Of a stretch of DNA of 64,000 nt, positions 6,001 to 48,000 are shown piece after piece. The position numbers were made by a program. The DNA is taken from assembly GCF_902652985.1 (NCBI RefSeq), contig NC_047019.1:38688001-38752000 (forward strand). The letters run 5' to 3'. Source of the DNA: Pecten maximus (Eukaryota). Position 1 is the first letter of the stretch. Every line of letters begins with the position of its first letter.

Positions 6001-9000
6001 TTTGGAGGAGAGTGCCAACCCTCATTTTAGATATAGCGATAACAATTATTCACTAAATGTGAACGTAGAGATACACATGTATGATTTTTTCCTTTATGTC
6101 CTCGCCATTCTGACAGTTTCGAAAGTAGGTATGCTGGTTCTGCCATTCTGTTTTGAAACTTAACAATAGAGGTAGCGTTTGTTAATGGTAGTGTTCATAA
6201 ATATAAGCAATTTCTATTTCTATTGAAAAGTGCAGTACCTTTGTTAGACAGTAACACCTCTCCAGAACAAGTATGAACCACCCTGGCAATCCTCCAAATT
6301 GTATGCATTATTTATTTCCAAAAATAAAGTTTTAGCGTATCACATTTAATTTAGACATGAGAGACTAATCTGTTGTTTTTATATGGGCTTTACTGGAAAC
6401 TTTTATGGATCTTTCCCTTGGTGATTTGTTTCTCGAGTCTAATGGGAGTCGTGTGATTAGTTGTTGAAAGAAGACCGTAAATATACCTTCACTACGGCAG
6501 AAATCACCTTGATACACATTTCCCCTGGTTTATCAAGTCTCGCGTTTTCCCGCGTGGCGTGGTTGGTGCAATCCGTCACCAGAAATAATCACTCTATGGC
6601 GATAGCGGGATTCCTGATTTAGAGTTTATTTCTATACAGGCGCGGCGTAACACATGAAGGTCATCGGAATCCAGGGAATCCAATCCGCACTTTTGTGGAT
6701 GTTAAGACAAGTCTACAAAAGTCTTCGTATACGATGATGATTTATTAGTACATGCAACTACAAAACGTTGGATTTGTGTTATATTCAAGTAAACGTGTAT
6801 TTATTTCTTAAACGAATATTACGAAAGCACTTTGAAAGATGGGTCTGTGTTGTTAATGAAAGTGTCTGGTTCAAGTTAGTAATAGTAGAAGCTAGTTCCA
6901 AAAGGCGGTTTTGCCCCAGACACAATCGCAGTTGAGTAAAAGGCACATGGATATTGTCACAACAGCAAGTATCGACTTGTTTAACGTAAAACGAAGTACT
7001 ATGGCGTCTTGAAGTAGAACAAAGCCTGTGGTTGGGCACTAATTTGTGGGTGTTCCATAATAACTAACTATAGACTTCATGGTGTGCTTCAATGGCCATT
7101 CTACGCTGGTCGGAATGGCTTTCTAGACACTGCCACAAGGACTACAACATATAACATATGACTACAGTGCTTCACTCAGAGAGCCATATGTCCAGTCGTT
7201 AGCAATGATCTGTAATGCAGCGTGGAGGCAGAATAGAGATTTATCGGACTACTGTTTAATGTTAGTTTATTCAAACATGGACACGAGAAACATTTTTGCT
7301 GCAATTAAGTGGGACATTATGGCAGCCTTAGTTTTTTTCGCCTGGTAACAACTAAGAAGGGAGACGCCGGAACACGGTCTGGTAGTTTCGTGATATATAT
7401 GTACGTTATATTGTAGGCATAGGTATGTGGGGTCAAACATAATAAAACAAATGACAACACTCATATTTATCAAATATTTTCTAGGAATTTATTACATTTA
7501 TTTAAGGGTAACTGTGGCATAATTGATAAGAAAAGATATATTCGTGTTGACCACGTGATATAACCCCTCTCTAAACCCACCAGCCTCTGTCGATCAGTCG
7601 TTACGTGAGACACACTCGGCATTTATGACACCAAAGAGGCCACGCCACACATCACTGGCTAAAAAATCTAGCAATGAACTCAGGAGCCGTGATCAATATG
7701 GGCCTTGTCAATCAATTTGTCGGTTGCATTTTGTCATAGTCTCTGACCACAAGTGATGGCCGTCTAGCCAAAACAAGCCATAGGATGTGTCCAGTCGCGT
7801 CACACGGACAGTTAGCAGTGATCAGTGATTGGCATTATTCGCCACCTAGCGGATGGTTGCGGAGATTAATGATGGCAGCTGTATGTTACCGACATAATGG
7901 CCCAGCAGTTAACGGTATTTCTCGTGTGACGATTCTAGACAAAACTGCCAGTCCACCAAATGATAGGATATGGCCTCATGCTAAAAGCTGTCTCTCATAT
8001 GTTGCAATGAATCATATGGTACATGTAGGCAGCTGGCCGTAGCCTGTAGTCTTGGCCTCTGATATTACCTACAGCGCCTGATATTTTGATTATAAGAAGA
8101 TGACTTCAAAATGAAAATAAATTTTTTAAAAACATGATAGAGAGTTTGATTTTGGTATTTCCCCCTTGTTGCCTAGCAGTAACTGCTCGGATATTGTTCT
8201 TTAGTGACCCTTTCCTGGCTGAAGTATGAACCACGTGACCTATAGTAGGCACCCCCATTACCATTCAGCCCCGTTGGATTCCTACTCTAGTGTCACCAGG
8301 TCCTAATTCGATATCATTTCCGATATGTCACGGGTTCCCTTTTTGTAGCTCGACAATCTCAGCCATCTCTTTCCGTGACTTGTGATTCTGTGCCGAGACG
8401 TAATCATGCCGAACAGGACATGGGTATTATCTCAGGTTTAATTCTACCATTTTAAGAAAACTTCAAGCCGACAGAATCCAAAGGTAATAATCAGGGAAAG
8501 TAAAAGGAGAAAATTGCGACATATTAAGATTAATTCATCGTATAGGAACGTGGAAAGATTGTGGTGGTTCTAACATCACAAAATTCAATTTTGCCTCATA
8601 AAACCAAACACTGAAAGAATTTCGTTGGCGTCTGGGCTATTCATTCAAATTAGCCCTACCGTGATTTATTTCTTGGCTGATTTACATCCTATAGAATTTC
8701 CGCTAATTTTCAATGAAAAGATTATAAAAAAGACTTTAAAATGTTTGTTTGATATAACTTAAAACACGCTATGACGAGTCTGTCCTGATAAATTCAAAAC
8801 CATTTTGATGATTTGGTCTGATTCAAGCCTTTGTCAGTCTCGTACAGGCGATTAAGCGTGTTGGACCAGTAAATATTGATATCTGCTCTCTCTGGTATAG
8901 TGACTAGACCTTCTACTGCCTTTCGAGTGGATTTTATCAGAGCCTAAGCGACATGAACCAATTGCTTTATCTAAGCCTATGTGACATGACAGCGTGTCAC

Positions 9001-45000: not shown

Positions 45001-48000
45001 GATACGTGTACGTCTACTGACACTGTCCTCTTTAATTGCCGAACATACGTTTGATTGGCAGGTTATGTGAGAACTACGTCAGCAGGACTTCAGTTTGGCC
45101 AGGGTTCGGGATTCAGAAACTTCAAAGGATATATGGACGAGGTCAAGTATCAATTTTATAAAGCGGTGGAATGTCTGATTTGTACATTGATATACACGTT
45201 AGAATATCTTTTACGTAATCGTGAAATACAGTCTATTTTTAACTTCAAAATAATAACGTGTTGACTTGTACATGGAAAACGAAGGAAATCGATTTTGTAA
45301 GCAATTTAATCCTCACAAACACGAAAATCCAAAAATACCAGTCTCTCAATGTTACCTGTCGTAACAAGTCAAAAGTAACCCCGCGGGACGGGACCAGCAT
45401 TACACCCCGCGGGACGGGACCAGCATTTGAATGCTTCTTCGATAAGCATCAAAGTGACTAGTTATGACCTTTGATATCAATTCACTGACAAGGAGACACT
45501 CCCGGAAAGTATCCCCTAGAGTCATTGGGAGTATCAGTAACAGTTGTATTCAACGTTGTATATCAAATGTATCACGGAATCCGTCCAAATATTTATTTAT
45601 ATAATTATTTATATATTTATATTTTTGTTCAACAGGCTTTTTCTTTTGTTTCTTTGTAAGTCGTTGTTATTCTAGACAAAACTAAGGTCAATCTCATTCT
45701 GCAACTGCGTTTACATGTTAATACTTAAATACAGAAACGATTATTTTAATGTATTTTATGGTAAACATAAAAACGTCTCTCTCTGCTTACATTTTTTTTC
45801 TGTTGAAATTATTGATTATGATGACTAAAGGATTGTATCAAAGTAGTTACACCTTTTATCCTTAAATATAATACCTGTTTGTTCTACAGATCTACGTGTA
45901 CCTCTGTAGACCAAACGACAGCGACCTGTTTGATGAAGCCGACACCACCGGATCTGATTCTACGGTAACCGAGGTTAACATGGACGAAACCACCAGATAC
46001 ACACCTTCCGATGTCACGAAACATCTTTCCTCTCCATCAACTTCAATCGGAACGACGCAAGCTGAGACGTCTGGTGACGTCTTGGACTACAGCAGCGAAA
46101 GTTCATTGATGACGGAATCCACGGTGACGGAGTACGATGAAGTCTATCTTACACGTATCATTACGGAAGCGTTGGACTCGGAGTTTTCAACAACCATGGG
46201 AACAATTGATTTATCGGAAGTGACGTCACTCAGTGAGAGTACAACATCAGTTAGAGAATCATTTACAGCAGAATCTTTAACAACTGTATCTGATTCGGAA
46301 ACAACTTTAAAAAATAGTTCATCATCTTTTAACTCTACATCATCATCATCATCACCCATCGAGAGTACTTCATTACCTGTTACAGAATCATCATCACCCA
46401 TCGAGAGTACTCCATTACCTGTTACAGAATCATCATCACCCATCGAGAGTACTCCATTACCTGTTACAGAATCATCATCACTCATCGAGAGAACATCATC
46501 ACATGTTACAGAAACATCATCAAATCCATTAAGTACTTCTTCATCAGTTTTCTTTGATTCATCACAACCGGTGATAGAAGATACAGAAAAAATCACCGAA
46601 ACATCATCAATTTCTTCACCTACTAACTCTTCACATTCAAATTATCAAACGACTTTTGAACCAGGTGTAAAAGAATACATCACCGAAAGTGAACTTCCGC
46701 AAACAGACATTTACTTCAAAAATCGCTACAACGTCACTTCCGTTTCTGGTATTTTGGAAGAAAGTGATTCATATAATACCTCGAGCCAACATAACAGAAC
46801 TACGCCCCTAGGTGGTGATGTTGACAGTTTGATCATACCTACTTCCAGTCTACGTGGTATCGTTCTTAACAATAACTCATTTTTATCATTACTTACAGGT
46901 AAAAATACATATTTAAAGTCAACAACAGCTGTTGCAAGTATACAACTTGGAAATGATACTCTACGGCTACATAATAATAGTGAAAATAATGGAAATTGTT
47001 GTATCGATTCTCAAATACATGGTGCTACAAAGGGGCACAATCACACTGCTCAAAGTATTCTCAAGACAAATGGTGCTATTATCCACAACGAAAATGGTGA
47101 ATATATCGATAAAGAAAGACGAAGAGCCAAAAACAATAGTCTTACAACAGCTATACAATCTACAGACGACACCACCGCCGGGGCTGCTACATCCCAAGGG
47201 TCCTACGTTACACAATCAGTTAATTTTTCAAAGTGGCTATTTGCCAAATTTGATAGTGATTATCACAGCGAGAATAGACGATCCCATGATAGTGAAGCTA
47301 ACGTGACTGGATGGCGACCAGAACATTGATTATACTTTAGTAAAGATATTTTTATGAATATATTGTTTAGTTTGACTTTTGTTTTGTTCATCATATGTAT
47401 CAACAAATTTAACATGGGACACAAAGACGAGATAAAACAACGATATGATTGATGTGATCTATACGGCTCTTCAACTCCAGCTTACTCAGAAGGAAATAAG
47501 TGTTCTTTTCTCTTAAAGAAAGCATTATCCAAAACACGAGTAAAACTTAAAAAAAAGTTCTTATGTTTTATCTTTATTTTATTTATATCGATATCATTGC
47601 CACCCACTAATTTTTTACTCATATCAATATTTTTGCCACCCACTAAAATATCTTACTTATATTTCATTATTTTAATATTATTGCCACACACTAATGTTTT
47701 ACTGATATCAATAGTATTGCCACCCACTAAAATATCTTACTTATATCAATAATATTGCCACACACTAACTATTTTAATATTAGTGCCACACACTAATGTT
47801 TTACTTATATCAATATTATTGCCACACACTAATGTCTTACTTATATCAATATTATTGCCACCCACTAACGTATTCAATAGTATTGCCACCCACTAACGTA
47901 TTCAATATTATTGCCACACTCTAATATTTTACTTTTATCAATAGTATTGCCACTAACTGATATTTAGCTCATTTCTATAGCATTGCCACACACCAAATAC

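What the first reader, a model, noticed from the sequence alone, without database searches (positions are those of the whole stretch)
6077..47329. Pif-family biomineralization gene with an atypical overall architecture, spread over 41 kb
Seen: 11 phase-compatible exons give VWA-linker-3xCBM-like-LamG-S/T tail. Known: Pif/BMSP/LamG3 proteins are molluscan shell matrix proteins that link chitin to the mineral phase. Inference: a degenerate MIDAS, twin acidic inserts in LamG and a mucin-like tail together may define a lineage-specific Pif variant. An ORF-only annotation fragments it into unrelated short ORFs.
Basis: partly seen in the sequence, partly recalled or inferred. Interest (0 to 1): 0.75.

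Follow-up and report, generated by a model that had tools for sequence, protein, structure and literature searches.

The report
Scallop Pif shell-matrix gene, already annotated
This is the king scallop's copy of Pif, a well-known family of shell-building proteins; its supposedly odd features are normal for that family, and only its long serine/threonine-rich tail is special to scallops.

Summary
The window is Pecten maximus DNA. Ten + strand exons (10902-47329, all GT-AG, phase-compatible) encode residues 54-1204 of the RefSeq model 'protein PIF-like [Pecten maximus]' letter for letter.

VWA, three chitin-binding modules and LamG is the published Pif/LamG3 layout (PMC9635652, PMC10543319). The degenerate MIDAS is shared by all 5 VWA domains of the Pif clade. 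Acidic inserts at the same two places in LamG occur in the Pinctada-type and a Ser/Asp-rich Pif, and such inserts are in print as a family feature (PMC11291548). In a 58-row tree the scallop protein joins these proteins (SH-aLRT 99.7).

The 469-residue S/T-rich tail is the one scallop-specific part. It is shared with Mizuhopecten yessoensis (50% identity) and with one unnamed 415-residue protein (32%). Mantle expression and presence in the shell could not be tested. Verdict: an ordinary new member of a known kind, of low interest.

The parts
6077..6128 (+). Candidate exon 1: ATG, 17 codons (MYDFFLYVLAILTVSKV) plus one base, donor G|GTATGC. Signal-peptide-like. Unverified.
   Evidence: Sequence read. 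Its phase 1 fits the E2 acceptor. It is not in the RefSeq model. It is one of 8 hydrophobic candidates among 112 mechanical ones.
10902..11432 (+). Exon 2: the whole VWA domain, with degenerate MIDAS (DGTSA, T, TSG).
   Evidence: Pfam VWA E 4.2e-13. Exact match to P0001 residues 54-230. MIDAS columns. Collagen VI VWA is the only PDB sequence match.
11827..11964 (+). Exon 3: 46-residue linker, poorly conserved (46% identity to Mizuhopecten).
16712..16906 (+). Exon 4: chitin-binding module 1 (CBM_14).
   Evidence: Pfam CBM_14 E 3e-6, 27.7 bits against a cutoff of 22.1. Hit 124 times in the tblastn of the stored relatives.
21660..21848 (+). Exon 5: chitin-binding module 2 (CBM_14).
   Evidence: Pfam CBM_14 E 8.5e-6, 26.3 bits..
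38004..38183 (+). Exon 6: third, degenerate chitin-binding-like module (4 Cys).
   Evidence: No Pfam hit alone. It is conserved as 'CBM3' in most relatives. In the orthologue model it is a confident small beta module at P0002 residues 180-225.
41712..41904 (+). Exon 7: N-terminal conserved part of the LamG/ConA-like domain.
   Evidence: 89% identity to Mizuhopecten. The 'LGa' part was found, together with LGcd, in 61 of the 153 stored proteins.
43232..43649 (+). Exon 8: middle of the LamG-like domain, 139 residues where typical relatives have 51-67. It carries all three inserts.
   Evidence: 27% D+E.
43263..43361 (+). Acidic insert 1 (P0001 residues 540-572; 48% D+E, 21% Y+F).
   Evidence: Columns gapped in at least 80% of the 29 non-Pif rows of alignment A2. 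The matching stretch of the orthologue has pLDDT below 50.
43401..43430 (+). Small 10-residue insert (residues 586-595), which includes an extra Cys.
43533..43631 (+). Acidic insert 2 (residues 630-662; 33% D+E, 21% Y+F).
44370..44460 (+). Exon 9: LamG-like strands.
   Evidence: Exact match to P0001 residues 669-699. Splice sites.
45062..45141 (+). Exon 10: LamG-like C-terminal conserved part (GLQFGQGSGFRNFKGYMDE).
   Evidence: The 'LGcd' part is 91% identical to Mizuhopecten.
45890..47329 (+). Exon 11: last LamG strand (IYVYLCRP), then a 469-residue S/T-rich tail (34% S+T, 13 N-x-S/T sequons) and the stop codon TGA.
   Evidence: The orthologue's tail has pLDDT below 50 throughout. 32% identity to P0072, E 2e-26.
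46345..46522 (+). 42-nt tandem repeat, 4.2 copies, inside the tail (14-residue unit SSSPIESTPLPVTE). Absent from Mizuhopecten.

Best explanation
The locus is the Pecten maximus orthologue of Pif, in the Pif subfamily of the Pif/BMSP/LamG3 shell-matrix proteins.

Shown here:
- One gene of 10 verified exons, plus one candidate exon.
- One domain per exon at the N-terminus, in symmetric phase 1-1 exons.
- It encodes a single VWA domain without a working MIDAS, a short linker, two CBM_14 modules and a third degenerate one.
- It encodes a concanavalin-A/LamG-like beta sandwich whose middle carries two 33-residue Asp/Glu/Tyr-rich loops.
- It ends in a roughly 470-residue S/T-rich tail.
- The two loops and the tail are predicted to be disordered in the orthologue model.

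Inferred from what is published for the family:
- The protein is secreted by the mantle.
- The chitin-binding modules anchor it to the chitin framework.
- The VWA domain binds other matrix proteins without a metal-ion site.
- The acidic loops on the LamG scaffold bind calcium or calcium carbonate. Here that would be the foliated calcite of a scallop rather than nacre; scallop shell mineralogy is my own knowledge, from no call.
- The tail is probably heavily glycosylated, mucin-like.
- It has no R-x-K/R-R site, so it probably stays in one piece, unlike Pinctada Pif, which is cut into Pif97 and Pif80.
For: Gene and exons:
- Exact identity of E2-E11 with RefSeq 'protein PIF-like [Pecten maximus]'.
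- GT-AG junctions and matching phases.
- Pfam VWA and two CBM_14 on single exons.

Wider family:
- The whole-library search with the orthologue P0002 found 335 relatives at E <= 1e-3 and listed 150. With the 6 proteins from the earlier searches this gave 153 stored proteins, and most of the 70 printed share the module CBM1-CBM2-CBM3-LGa-spacer-LGcd.
- Of 61 stored proteins with both LamG ends, 52 have a spacer of 51-67 residues and 2 have 6 or fewer.
- The other 7 have an expanded acidic spacer of 24-32% D+E: Saccostrea PIF-like 869 and 612, P0008 263, P0014 148, and the three scallop rows 139.
- The six full rows of that group form one clade among 58 rows (SH-aLRT 99.7, insert columns trimmed out). 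A first tree of 53 rows put 4 of them in one clade at 99.
- The inserts sit at the same two places in P0008, P0014 and the scallops.

Fold:
- The AlphaFold2 model of the orthologue has pLDDT about 85-96 over the three CBM modules and the LamG core, and below 50 in both inserts and the tail.
- Foldseek against PDB gives 356 matches at E <= 0.001, all ConA-like jelly rolls among those listed.
- Laminin_G_3 is hit by 10 of the 33 rows of alignment A2, all with uninterrupted domains.

Literature (passages read):
- PMC11291548: Pif80 holds partial LG parts plus Asp-rich low-complexity inserts and binds aragonite; the Pif VWA pulls down Pif80, nacrein and protease inhibitors.
- PMC5854119: VWA and chitin-binding-2 domains occur in the P. 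maximus shell matrix.
Against: - No expression or proteome evidence for this gene was available. Supplements that list the P. maximus shell proteins are closed.
- Pfam finds no Laminin_G family in P0001 even at E <= 10. The LamG call therefore rests on homology to rows that do hit it, and on a model of the Mizuhopecten orthologue rather than of the window's own protein.
- P0008 is taken for Pinctada Pif only from recall (1007 aa, RMKR, Asp/Lys/Arg-rich).
- The trees are 'quick' searches with SH-aLRT only and an unrooted clade. In the first tree P0008 and P0014 have an unusual letter make-up, which could draw acidic rows together.
- PMC11291548 states that Pif homologues were found in nacre, apart from the Pacific oyster's. 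Scallops make no nacre (own knowledge), so a shell role here is an extrapolation. PMC10543319 argues that the ancestral role of Pif was not mineralisation.
- The signal peptide depends on the unverified exon 1.
Confidence: 0.82

Rival explanations
1. It is a LamG3/'ancestral Pif'-type paralogue (VWA + 3 ChtBd + LamG), not the orthologue of Pinctada Pif. The acidic loops would then have arisen independently in scallops.
For: - Its domain list is exactly that given for LamG3 by Marie et al. 2017, as quoted in PMC9635652, and for 'ancestral Pif' in PMC10543319.
- Its inserts are much shorter (33 + 33 residues) than in the other clade members (148-869 residue spacers).
- The inserts are Tyr-rich, not Lys/Arg- or Ser-rich.
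Against: - It shares a clade with the expanded-insert proteins, at SH-aLRT 99 and 99.7.
- The insert positions are identical.
- It shares the loss of MIDAS.
- The best non-scallop hit of the orthologue is P0008 (E 8e-60).
Confidence: 0.1
2. The 11 exons do not make one obligatory product. The locus gives several isoforms (with or without VWA), or the S/T tail exon belongs mostly to another transcript.
For: - The Mizuhopecten record P0002 is 'isoform X2' and lacks the VWA exon.
- E2 is a symmetric phase 1-1 exon, so skipping it keeps the frame.
- P0072 is a 415-residue protein homologous to the tail alone.
Against: - Both RefSeq models join LamG to the tail.
- The last LamG strand (IYVYLCRP) lies in the same exon as the tail, so the tail cannot be left out without truncating the domain.
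- P0072 starts at an internal Met and may be a fragment.
Confidence: 0.2
3. It is a general chitin-binding, mucin-like extracellular matrix protein (periostracum, gut or mucosal surface) with no part in mineral deposition.
For: - It has a mucin-like tail with 13 sequons.
- The VWA-CB-LG module is widespread beyond shell-bearing lineages according to PMC10543319, which suggests a non-mineral ancestral role.
- Scallops make no nacre (own knowledge).
Against: - The acidic loops are conserved between two scallop genera (60% and 75% identity).
- They lie where the carbonate-binding region of Pif80 lies.
- The nearest relatives are named PIF-like.
Confidence: 0.12

Closest known systems
Pinctada fucata Pif (Pif177, cut into Pif97 and Pif80), taken here to be P0008
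   Same: - Signal peptide, then a Cys just before a single VWA with a broken MIDAS.
- CBM_14 modules.
- N- and C-terminal LamG parts split by acidic inserts at the same two positions.
- Same clade in both trees.
   Different: - The scallop spacer is 139 residues against 263, and is Asp/Glu/Tyr-rich with 9% K+R against 30% K+R.
- The scallop has no RMKR or any R-x-K/R-R site.
- The scallop tail is 469 residues with 34% S+T. The Pinctada-type tail is 152 residues with 2% S+T, and is Asp/Lys/Arg-rich in the sequence read.
- About 31% identity to the orthologue P0002 in alignment A2; phmmer gave 37% over the matched stretches.
Mizuhopecten yessoensis 'protein PIF-like isoform X2' (P0002)
   Same: It is the orthologue. 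It is 70% identical overall, has both inserts (60% and 75% identity), and has the S/T tail with the same conserved islands.
   Different: - The record lacks the VWA exon.
- It lacks the four 14-residue repeats of the Pecten tail.
- It has no Lys-Arg pair at the start of insert 1.
LamG3 / 'ancestral Pif' proteins (VWA + ChtBd x3 + uninterrupted LamG)
   Same: The same domain order and the same conserved module CBM1-CBM2-CBM3-LamG.
   Different: - They keep a 51-67 residue, non-acidic LamG middle.
- 10 of the 33 rows of A2 hit Pfam Laminin_G_3, none of them from the expanded-insert group.
- They mostly keep a complete MIDAS.
- They fall outside the scallop's clade.
BMSP (blue mussel shell protein)
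   Same: VWA, chitin-binding and LG parts; a shell matrix protein (PMC11291548 passages).
   Different: BMSP has three or four tandem VWA domains. The scallop gene has one. Rows with 3 VWA (P0028, P0034, P0047) lie in other clades.
Saccostrea 'protein PIF-like' (P0004, P0005)
   Same: Single VWA with a broken MIDAS (PGSDD), an expanded acidic LamG spacer, the same clade, and a non-nacreous host (host mineralogy is my own knowledge).
   Different: Their spacers are 612-869 residues and their tails only 38-47 residues.

Membership tests
Pif subfamily (Pifsf) of Pif/BMSP proteins | A single N-terminal VWA domain | tested here: met
   One VWA hit, E 4.2e-13, on exon 2. One VWA stretch in P0001.
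Pif subfamily (Pifsf) of Pif/BMSP proteins | Peritrophin-A type chitin-binding domain(s) after the VWA | tested here: met
   CBM_14 above the gathering score on E4 and E5. A third, degenerate module on E6 is conserved in relatives.
Pif subfamily (Pifsf) of Pif/BMSP proteins | Conserved N- and C-terminal LG parts separated by an Asp-rich insert | tested here: met
   The spacer is 139 residues with 27% D+E, against 51-67 residues in 52 of 61 relatives. The trait is as described in PMC11291548.
Pif subfamily (Pifsf) of Pif/BMSP proteins | Groups with Pinctada Pif in a family tree | tested here: inconclusive
   It forms one clade with P0008, P0014, P0004 and P0005 at SH-aLRT 99.7.
Pif subfamily (Pifsf) of Pif/BMSP proteins | Kex2/furin-type site (RMKR in Pinctada) that splits the precursor in two | tested here: not met
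   No R-x-K/R-R in P0001 or P0002; P0008 has RMKR at 544. P0014 has none either, so this is a Pinctada trait rather than a family one.
Pif subfamily (Pifsf) of Pif/BMSP proteins | Secreted by the mantle and present in the shell matrix; binds calcium carbonate | not testable with these tools
   No RNA-seq or proteome data were available. The supplements of PMC5854119 are closed.
VWA domains with a metal-ion-dependent adhesion site | MIDAS residues DxSxS, Thr, Asp | tested here: not met
   The scallop has DGTSA, T, and S in place of D (TSG). 49 of 60 family VWA segments keep all of them.
Pfam Laminin_G_3 / concanavalin A-like lectin fold | Sequence match to the Pfam model | tested here: not met
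   No Laminin_G family for P0001 at E <= 10, nor for single exons. 10 of the 33 rows of A2 match.
Pfam Laminin_G_3 / concanavalin A-like lectin fold | Beta-sandwich jelly-roll fold | tested here: met
   Tested on the 81%-identical orthologue only. The core is confident. Foldseek gives 356 PDB matches at E <= 0.001, for example 5hon_A with TM 0.68 on the target.
BMSP subfamily | Three or four tandem VWA domains | tested here: not met
   One VWA only.
LamG3 in the sense of PMC10543319 (CB + LG, no VWA) | Absence of VWA | tested here: not met
   A VWA exon is present at 10902-11432. The Mizuhopecten isoform X2 would meet this feature.

The most novel reading that the evidence does not exclude
In scallops, which build foliated calcite and no nacre (own knowledge), the Pif orthologue may have been remodelled in two ways. 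The long Asp/Lys-rich Pif80 region is reduced to two short Asp/Tyr-rich loops without a processing site. A conserved, roughly 470-residue, probably O-glycosylated tail has been added, with its own motifs (TEYD.VYLTRII.EALDSEF, HTAQSI.KTNGAI.HNENG, HDSE.N.T.W). That tail could be a new functional module, since it also occurs as an apparently separate 415-residue protein (P0072) in another, unnamed source. It could adapt Pif to calcitic foliated shell.
Probability: 0.25. Interest if true: 0.4.

Novelty: new member of a known kind. Interest (0 to 1): 0.2.

Why it matters
It matters little beyond annotation. The work shows that the RefSeq model of this gene probably has a wrong first exon (no signal peptide, and not near the gene), and that a signal-peptide exon lies at 6077-6128.

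It also illustrates why domain scans report Pif as having 'lost' its LamG domain. The domain is still there, but it is interrupted by acidic loops.

For shell biology, the modest point is that a non-nacreous scallop keeps a Pif-clade gene with short Asp/Tyr loops and a mucin-like tail. That could be compared with the nacre-forming Pifs.

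Tried and rejected
Led nowhere:
- Pfam on single LamG exons and on the tail found nothing.
- Pfam on the whole RefSeq record found no Laminin_G.
- The ESM Atlas gave no usable hit for the tail exon or for P0072.
- Rfam and tRNA scans of the window found nothing.
- No AATAAA or ATTAAA lies within about 1.07 kb after the stop codon.
- The flanks 1-6000 and 47330-64000 hold only short or repeat-derived ORFs.
- There are no paralogous Pif/LamG3 exons anywhere else in the window, so the published Pif_LamG3 gene cluster is not visible here.

Considered and rejected:
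- BMSP: the gene has only one VWA.
- A relation to clostridial neurotoxins: the Foldseek hits are the lectin-like jelly-roll subdomain at 8-13% identity, which is a shared fold only.
- The minus-strand ORF 46144-46641: it is the mirror image of the low-complexity tail.

Not checked:
- Names and species of P0007-P0153.
- Mantle expression.
- Shell peptides.
- The collections metagenome contigs and viral contigs (closed). Genome contigs holds bacteria and archaea only and was not used.
- Supplements that may bear on the claims but were closed: tables S1-S3 of PMC5854119 (list of P. maximus shell proteins); Table S14 and Figs S16-S19 of PMC10543319 (which M. yessoensis genes were used, and their mantle expression); Tables S5-S7 of PMC11291548 (species sampled).

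Not in print, as far as my searches show: a description of the pectinid Pif tail or of its Asp/Tyr inserts. This rests and on word searches inside PMC11291548, which has no occurrence of scallop, Pecten or yessoensis. MIDAS is not mentioned in that paper either.

The joined step was left out. I built and searched no spliced model of my own. Searches with window sequence were made exon by exon, and the fold was made on the Mizuhopecten orthologue instead of on joined window exons.

The contig is scallop, not human.

Full report
What is there.

The window has no N and is about 30-44% G+C in 2-kb windows. It is Pecten maximus DNA: the VWA exon finds a single protein, P0001 'protein PIF-like [Pecten maximus]', 1204 aa, at E 4e-107. 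Exact-word mapping of P0001 onto the + frames places residues 54-1204 in ten blocks without any mismatch. The flanking bases give canonical junctions and agreeing phases:
- E2 10902-11432
- E3 11827-11964
- E4 16712-16906
- E5 21660-21848
- E6 38004-38183
- E7 41712-41904
- E8 43232-43649
- E9 44370-44460
- E10 45062-45141
- E11 45890-47329, with TGA

E2 to E6 are all phase 1-1, and each holds one module (VWA, linker, CBM, CBM, CBM-like). This is the usual look of shuffled extracellular domains.

The first exon.

It ends in phase 1, as E2 requires, and it puts the conserved Cys two residues after a signal-peptide-like stretch. Relatives with an evident signal peptide show a similar layout, with the Cys a few residues after it (P0008, P0014, P0028).

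RefSeq's residues 1-53 are a 19-residue repeat without a hydrophobic core, and they are not encoded in the window. A mechanical scan gives 112 ATG-to-phase-1-donor candidates upstream of E2, of which 8 have a hydrophobic core.

Domains, exon by exon.

Pfam on the single exon frames gives:
- VWA: 4.2e-13.
- CBM_14 on E4: 3e-6.
- CBM_14 on E5: 8.5e-6.
- Nothing for E6, E7, E8, E10 or E11.

The public record as a whole gives the same families and no Laminin_G, even at E <= 10. The VWA exon's only solved relative by sequence is collagen VI alpha-3.

Relatives.

The E8 exon, which holds the acidic stretches, finds P0001 and P0002, 'protein PIF-like isoform X2 [Mizuhopecten yessoensis]', at 77% identity over its full length. 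P0002 lacks the VWA exon but has both acidic stretches and the tail. Identity to Pecten by part:

| part | identity |
|---|---|
| three CBM modules | 71-81% |
| LamG ends | 89-91% |
| insert 1 | 60% |
| insert 2 | 75% |
| linker | 46% |
| tail | 50% |

A region-limited search with the public record added two Saccostrea 'PIF-like' proteins and an unnamed Sushi-CBM-LamG protein. The whole-library HMMER search with P0002 found 335 proteins at E <= 1e-3 and 46 at E <= 1e-30.

Cutting P0001 into nine parts and searching the 153 stored proteins showed that CBM1-CBM2-CBM3-LGa-spacer-LGcd is a very widespread module.

The 'atypical' features against the family.

(1) Architecture. One VWA, three chitin-binding domains and one LamG is the layout given for LamG3 (PMC9635652, passages) and for 'ancestral Pif' (PMC10543319, passages). 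It is not atypical.

(2) Inserts. Of 61 stored proteins with both LamG ends:
- 52 have 51-67 residues between them, at 2-18% D+E.
- 2 have 6 or fewer.
- 7 have an expanded spacer at 24-32% D+E: Saccostrea 869 and 612, P0008 263, P0014 148, and the scallop rows 139.

Against the 29 non-Pif rows of alignment A2, the scallop's extra residues are 540-572, 586-595 and 630-662. P0014 and P0008 carry their extra residues at the same two main places. PMC11291548 (passages) describes this directly: conserved N- and C-terminal LG parts with inserts of 138-1438 residues, Asp-rich in the Pif subfamily, with Lys/Arg in Pinctada and Ser in unionids. P0008 (1007 aa, RMKR at 544, Asp/Lys/Arg-rich) fits Pinctada Pif as I recall it, and P0014 (Ser/Asp-rich) fits the unionid type. 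Their names could not be looked up.

(3) MIDAS. 49 of 60 VWA segments from 44 relatives keep DxSxS, Thr and Asp. The 11 that do not include all five VWA domains of the expanded-insert group: DGTSA in Pecten, DSSDY, DASDD and PGSDD twice.

(4) Tail. Tails longer than 100 residues after LamG occur in only five proteins:
- P0001: 469 residues, 34% S+T.
- P0002: 418 residues, 28% S+T.
- P0030: 369 residues, 51% S+T, in a LamG3-type row.
- P0008: 152 residues, 2% S+T.
- P0024: 147 residues, 10% S+T.

The tail is not mere noise. P0072, an unnamed 415-residue protein, aligns to nearly all of it at 32% identity (E 2e-26), with shared islands such as HTAQSI.KTNGAI.HNENG.

Trees.

- On the CBM-to-LamG stretch, with columns filled in under half of the rows dropped, the scallop pair joins P0008 and P0014 (53 rows, SH-aLRT 99).
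- With the Saccostrea rows added, all six expanded-insert rows are one side of a branch (58 rows, 368 of 1625 columns kept, SH-aLRT 99.7). The rows left out were P0007 (a fragment) and P0093 and P0081 (no spacer).
- These are quick searches, unrooted. Two acidic rows had an unusual composition in the first tree.

Fold.

I folded the Mizuhopecten orthologue P0002 with a 33-row alignment. Mean pLDDT is 56.9 because 538 of 927 residues are below 50. The residues below 50 are mainly:
- the N-terminal linker;
- residues 312-343 and 410-440, which are the two inserts;
- all of 517-927, which is the tail.

The three small beta modules and the LamG core are at about 85-96.

Foldseek against PDB gives 356 matches at E <= 0.001 among the best 500. 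The listed ones are concanavalin-A-like jelly rolls: the lectin-like subdomain of clostridial neurotoxin binding domains and a GH43 accessory domain, at 8-13% identity, with TM 0.68 on the 206-residue target 5hon_A. This is shared fold, not kinship with toxins.

10 of the 33 rows of A2 hit Pfam Laminin_G_3, with a best E-value of 3e-6. P0001, P0002, P0008 and P0014 show no Laminin_G match when scanned on their own. The LamG-like domain is therefore real and merely interrupted. This also explains why domain scans call Pif 'LG-less'.

Mechanism.

Shown here:
- the gene structure;
- the modules;
- the lost MIDAS;
- the position, composition and predicted disorder of the loops and the tail;
- the absence of an R-x-K/R-R site in both scallops.

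Inferred from the family's literature:
- secretion by the mantle;
- chitin anchoring through the CBM modules;
- protein-protein contacts through the VWA (PMC11291548 reports that the Pinctada Pif VWA pulls down Pif80, nacrein and protease inhibitors);
- calcium carbonate binding by the acidic loops;
- a glycosylated tail.

VWA and chitin-binding-2 domains are reported in the P. maximus shell matrix (PMC5854119, passages). Whether this particular gene is among them is in supplements that I could not open.

Surroundings.

Tandem arrays:

| place | arrays |
|---|---|
| intron 3 | 15 nt x 36 |
| intron 4 | 26 nt x 17; 21 nt x 74 |
| intron 5 | 29 nt x 65; 25 nt x 145; 42 nt x 68 |
| intron 6 | 46 nt x 21 |

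More arrays lie upstream and downstream of the gene. By my own sum of the rows, such arrays take up about 12.5 kb of the 41 kb gene span.

Intron 5 also holds a reverse-transcriptase ORF (RVT_1, 5e-28). No other gene, RNA family or tRNA was found in the window.

Verdict.

The interpretation as an atypical, lineage-specific variant is mostly not supported. This is the pectinid member of the Pif subfamily and is already annotated in RefSeq. Its one family-level peculiarity is a conserved mucin-like tail together with short Asp/Tyr loops. Interest is low (0.2).

Noticed in passing
window 21849-38003 (intron 5): This 16-kb intron is largely satellite: 29-nt x 65 copies (23664-25553), 25-nt x 145 (26331-29953) and 42-nt x 68 (30952-33802). 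It also holds a reverse-transcriptase ORF on the + strand (34014-34844, RVT_1 E 5e-28), followed by a second open frame to 35560 with no Pfam match.
   Followed up: partly
window 12553-13090, 18747-20767, 40621-41589: Further long tandem arrays lie in introns 3, 4 and 6 (15-nt x 36; 26-nt x 17 and 21-nt x 74; 46-nt x 21). By my own sum of the rows, arrays make up roughly 12.5 kb of the 41-kb gene.
   Followed up: no
window 5339-5910, 55167-58109, 60235-61689: More satellite arrays flank the gene (34/167-nt, 48-nt and 24/49/73-nt, 41-nt units). They give strong GC-skew swings in the composition profile. No coding ORF was recognised in the flanks.
   Followed up: partly
P0001 residues 1-53 (not in the window): The RefSeq model starts with a 19-residue repeat (MFPRD.VDDGFTTVDHGCT, about 2.8 copies) that has no signal peptide and is not encoded in the 10.9 kb upstream of the VWA exon. 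It looks like a doubtful first exon of the automatic model.
   Followed up: partly
P0002 (Mizuhopecten yessoensis isoform X2) against window 10902-11432: The Mizuhopecten record skips the VWA exon. That exon is phase 1-1, so skipping it keeps the frame. A VWA-less, 'LamG3-like' isoform from the same gene is therefore possible in scallops.
   Followed up: no
window 43245-43250 (P0001 residues 534-535): A Lys-Arg pair sits at the start of insert 1, near where Pinctada-type P0008 has RMKR. It is not conserved in Mizuhopecten (ANRT) and does not fit R-x-K/R-R.
   Followed up: partly
window 47330-48400: There is no AATAAA or ATTAAA within about 1.07 kb downstream of the stop codon, so the 3' end of the transcript is not evident.
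   Followed up: no
P0072 (unnamed source, 415 aa): This protein is homologous to the S/T tail alone (32% identity over about 410 columns, E 2e-26) and shares motifs such as HTAQSI.KTNGAI.HNENG. It could be a fragment of another species' Pif gene or a separate gene.
   Followed up: partly
P0003 (unnamed source, 867 aa): This relative has eight Sushi repeats in front of the CBM-LamG module. It matches the published 'PifCCP' type, and here it lacks a VWA.
   Followed up: no
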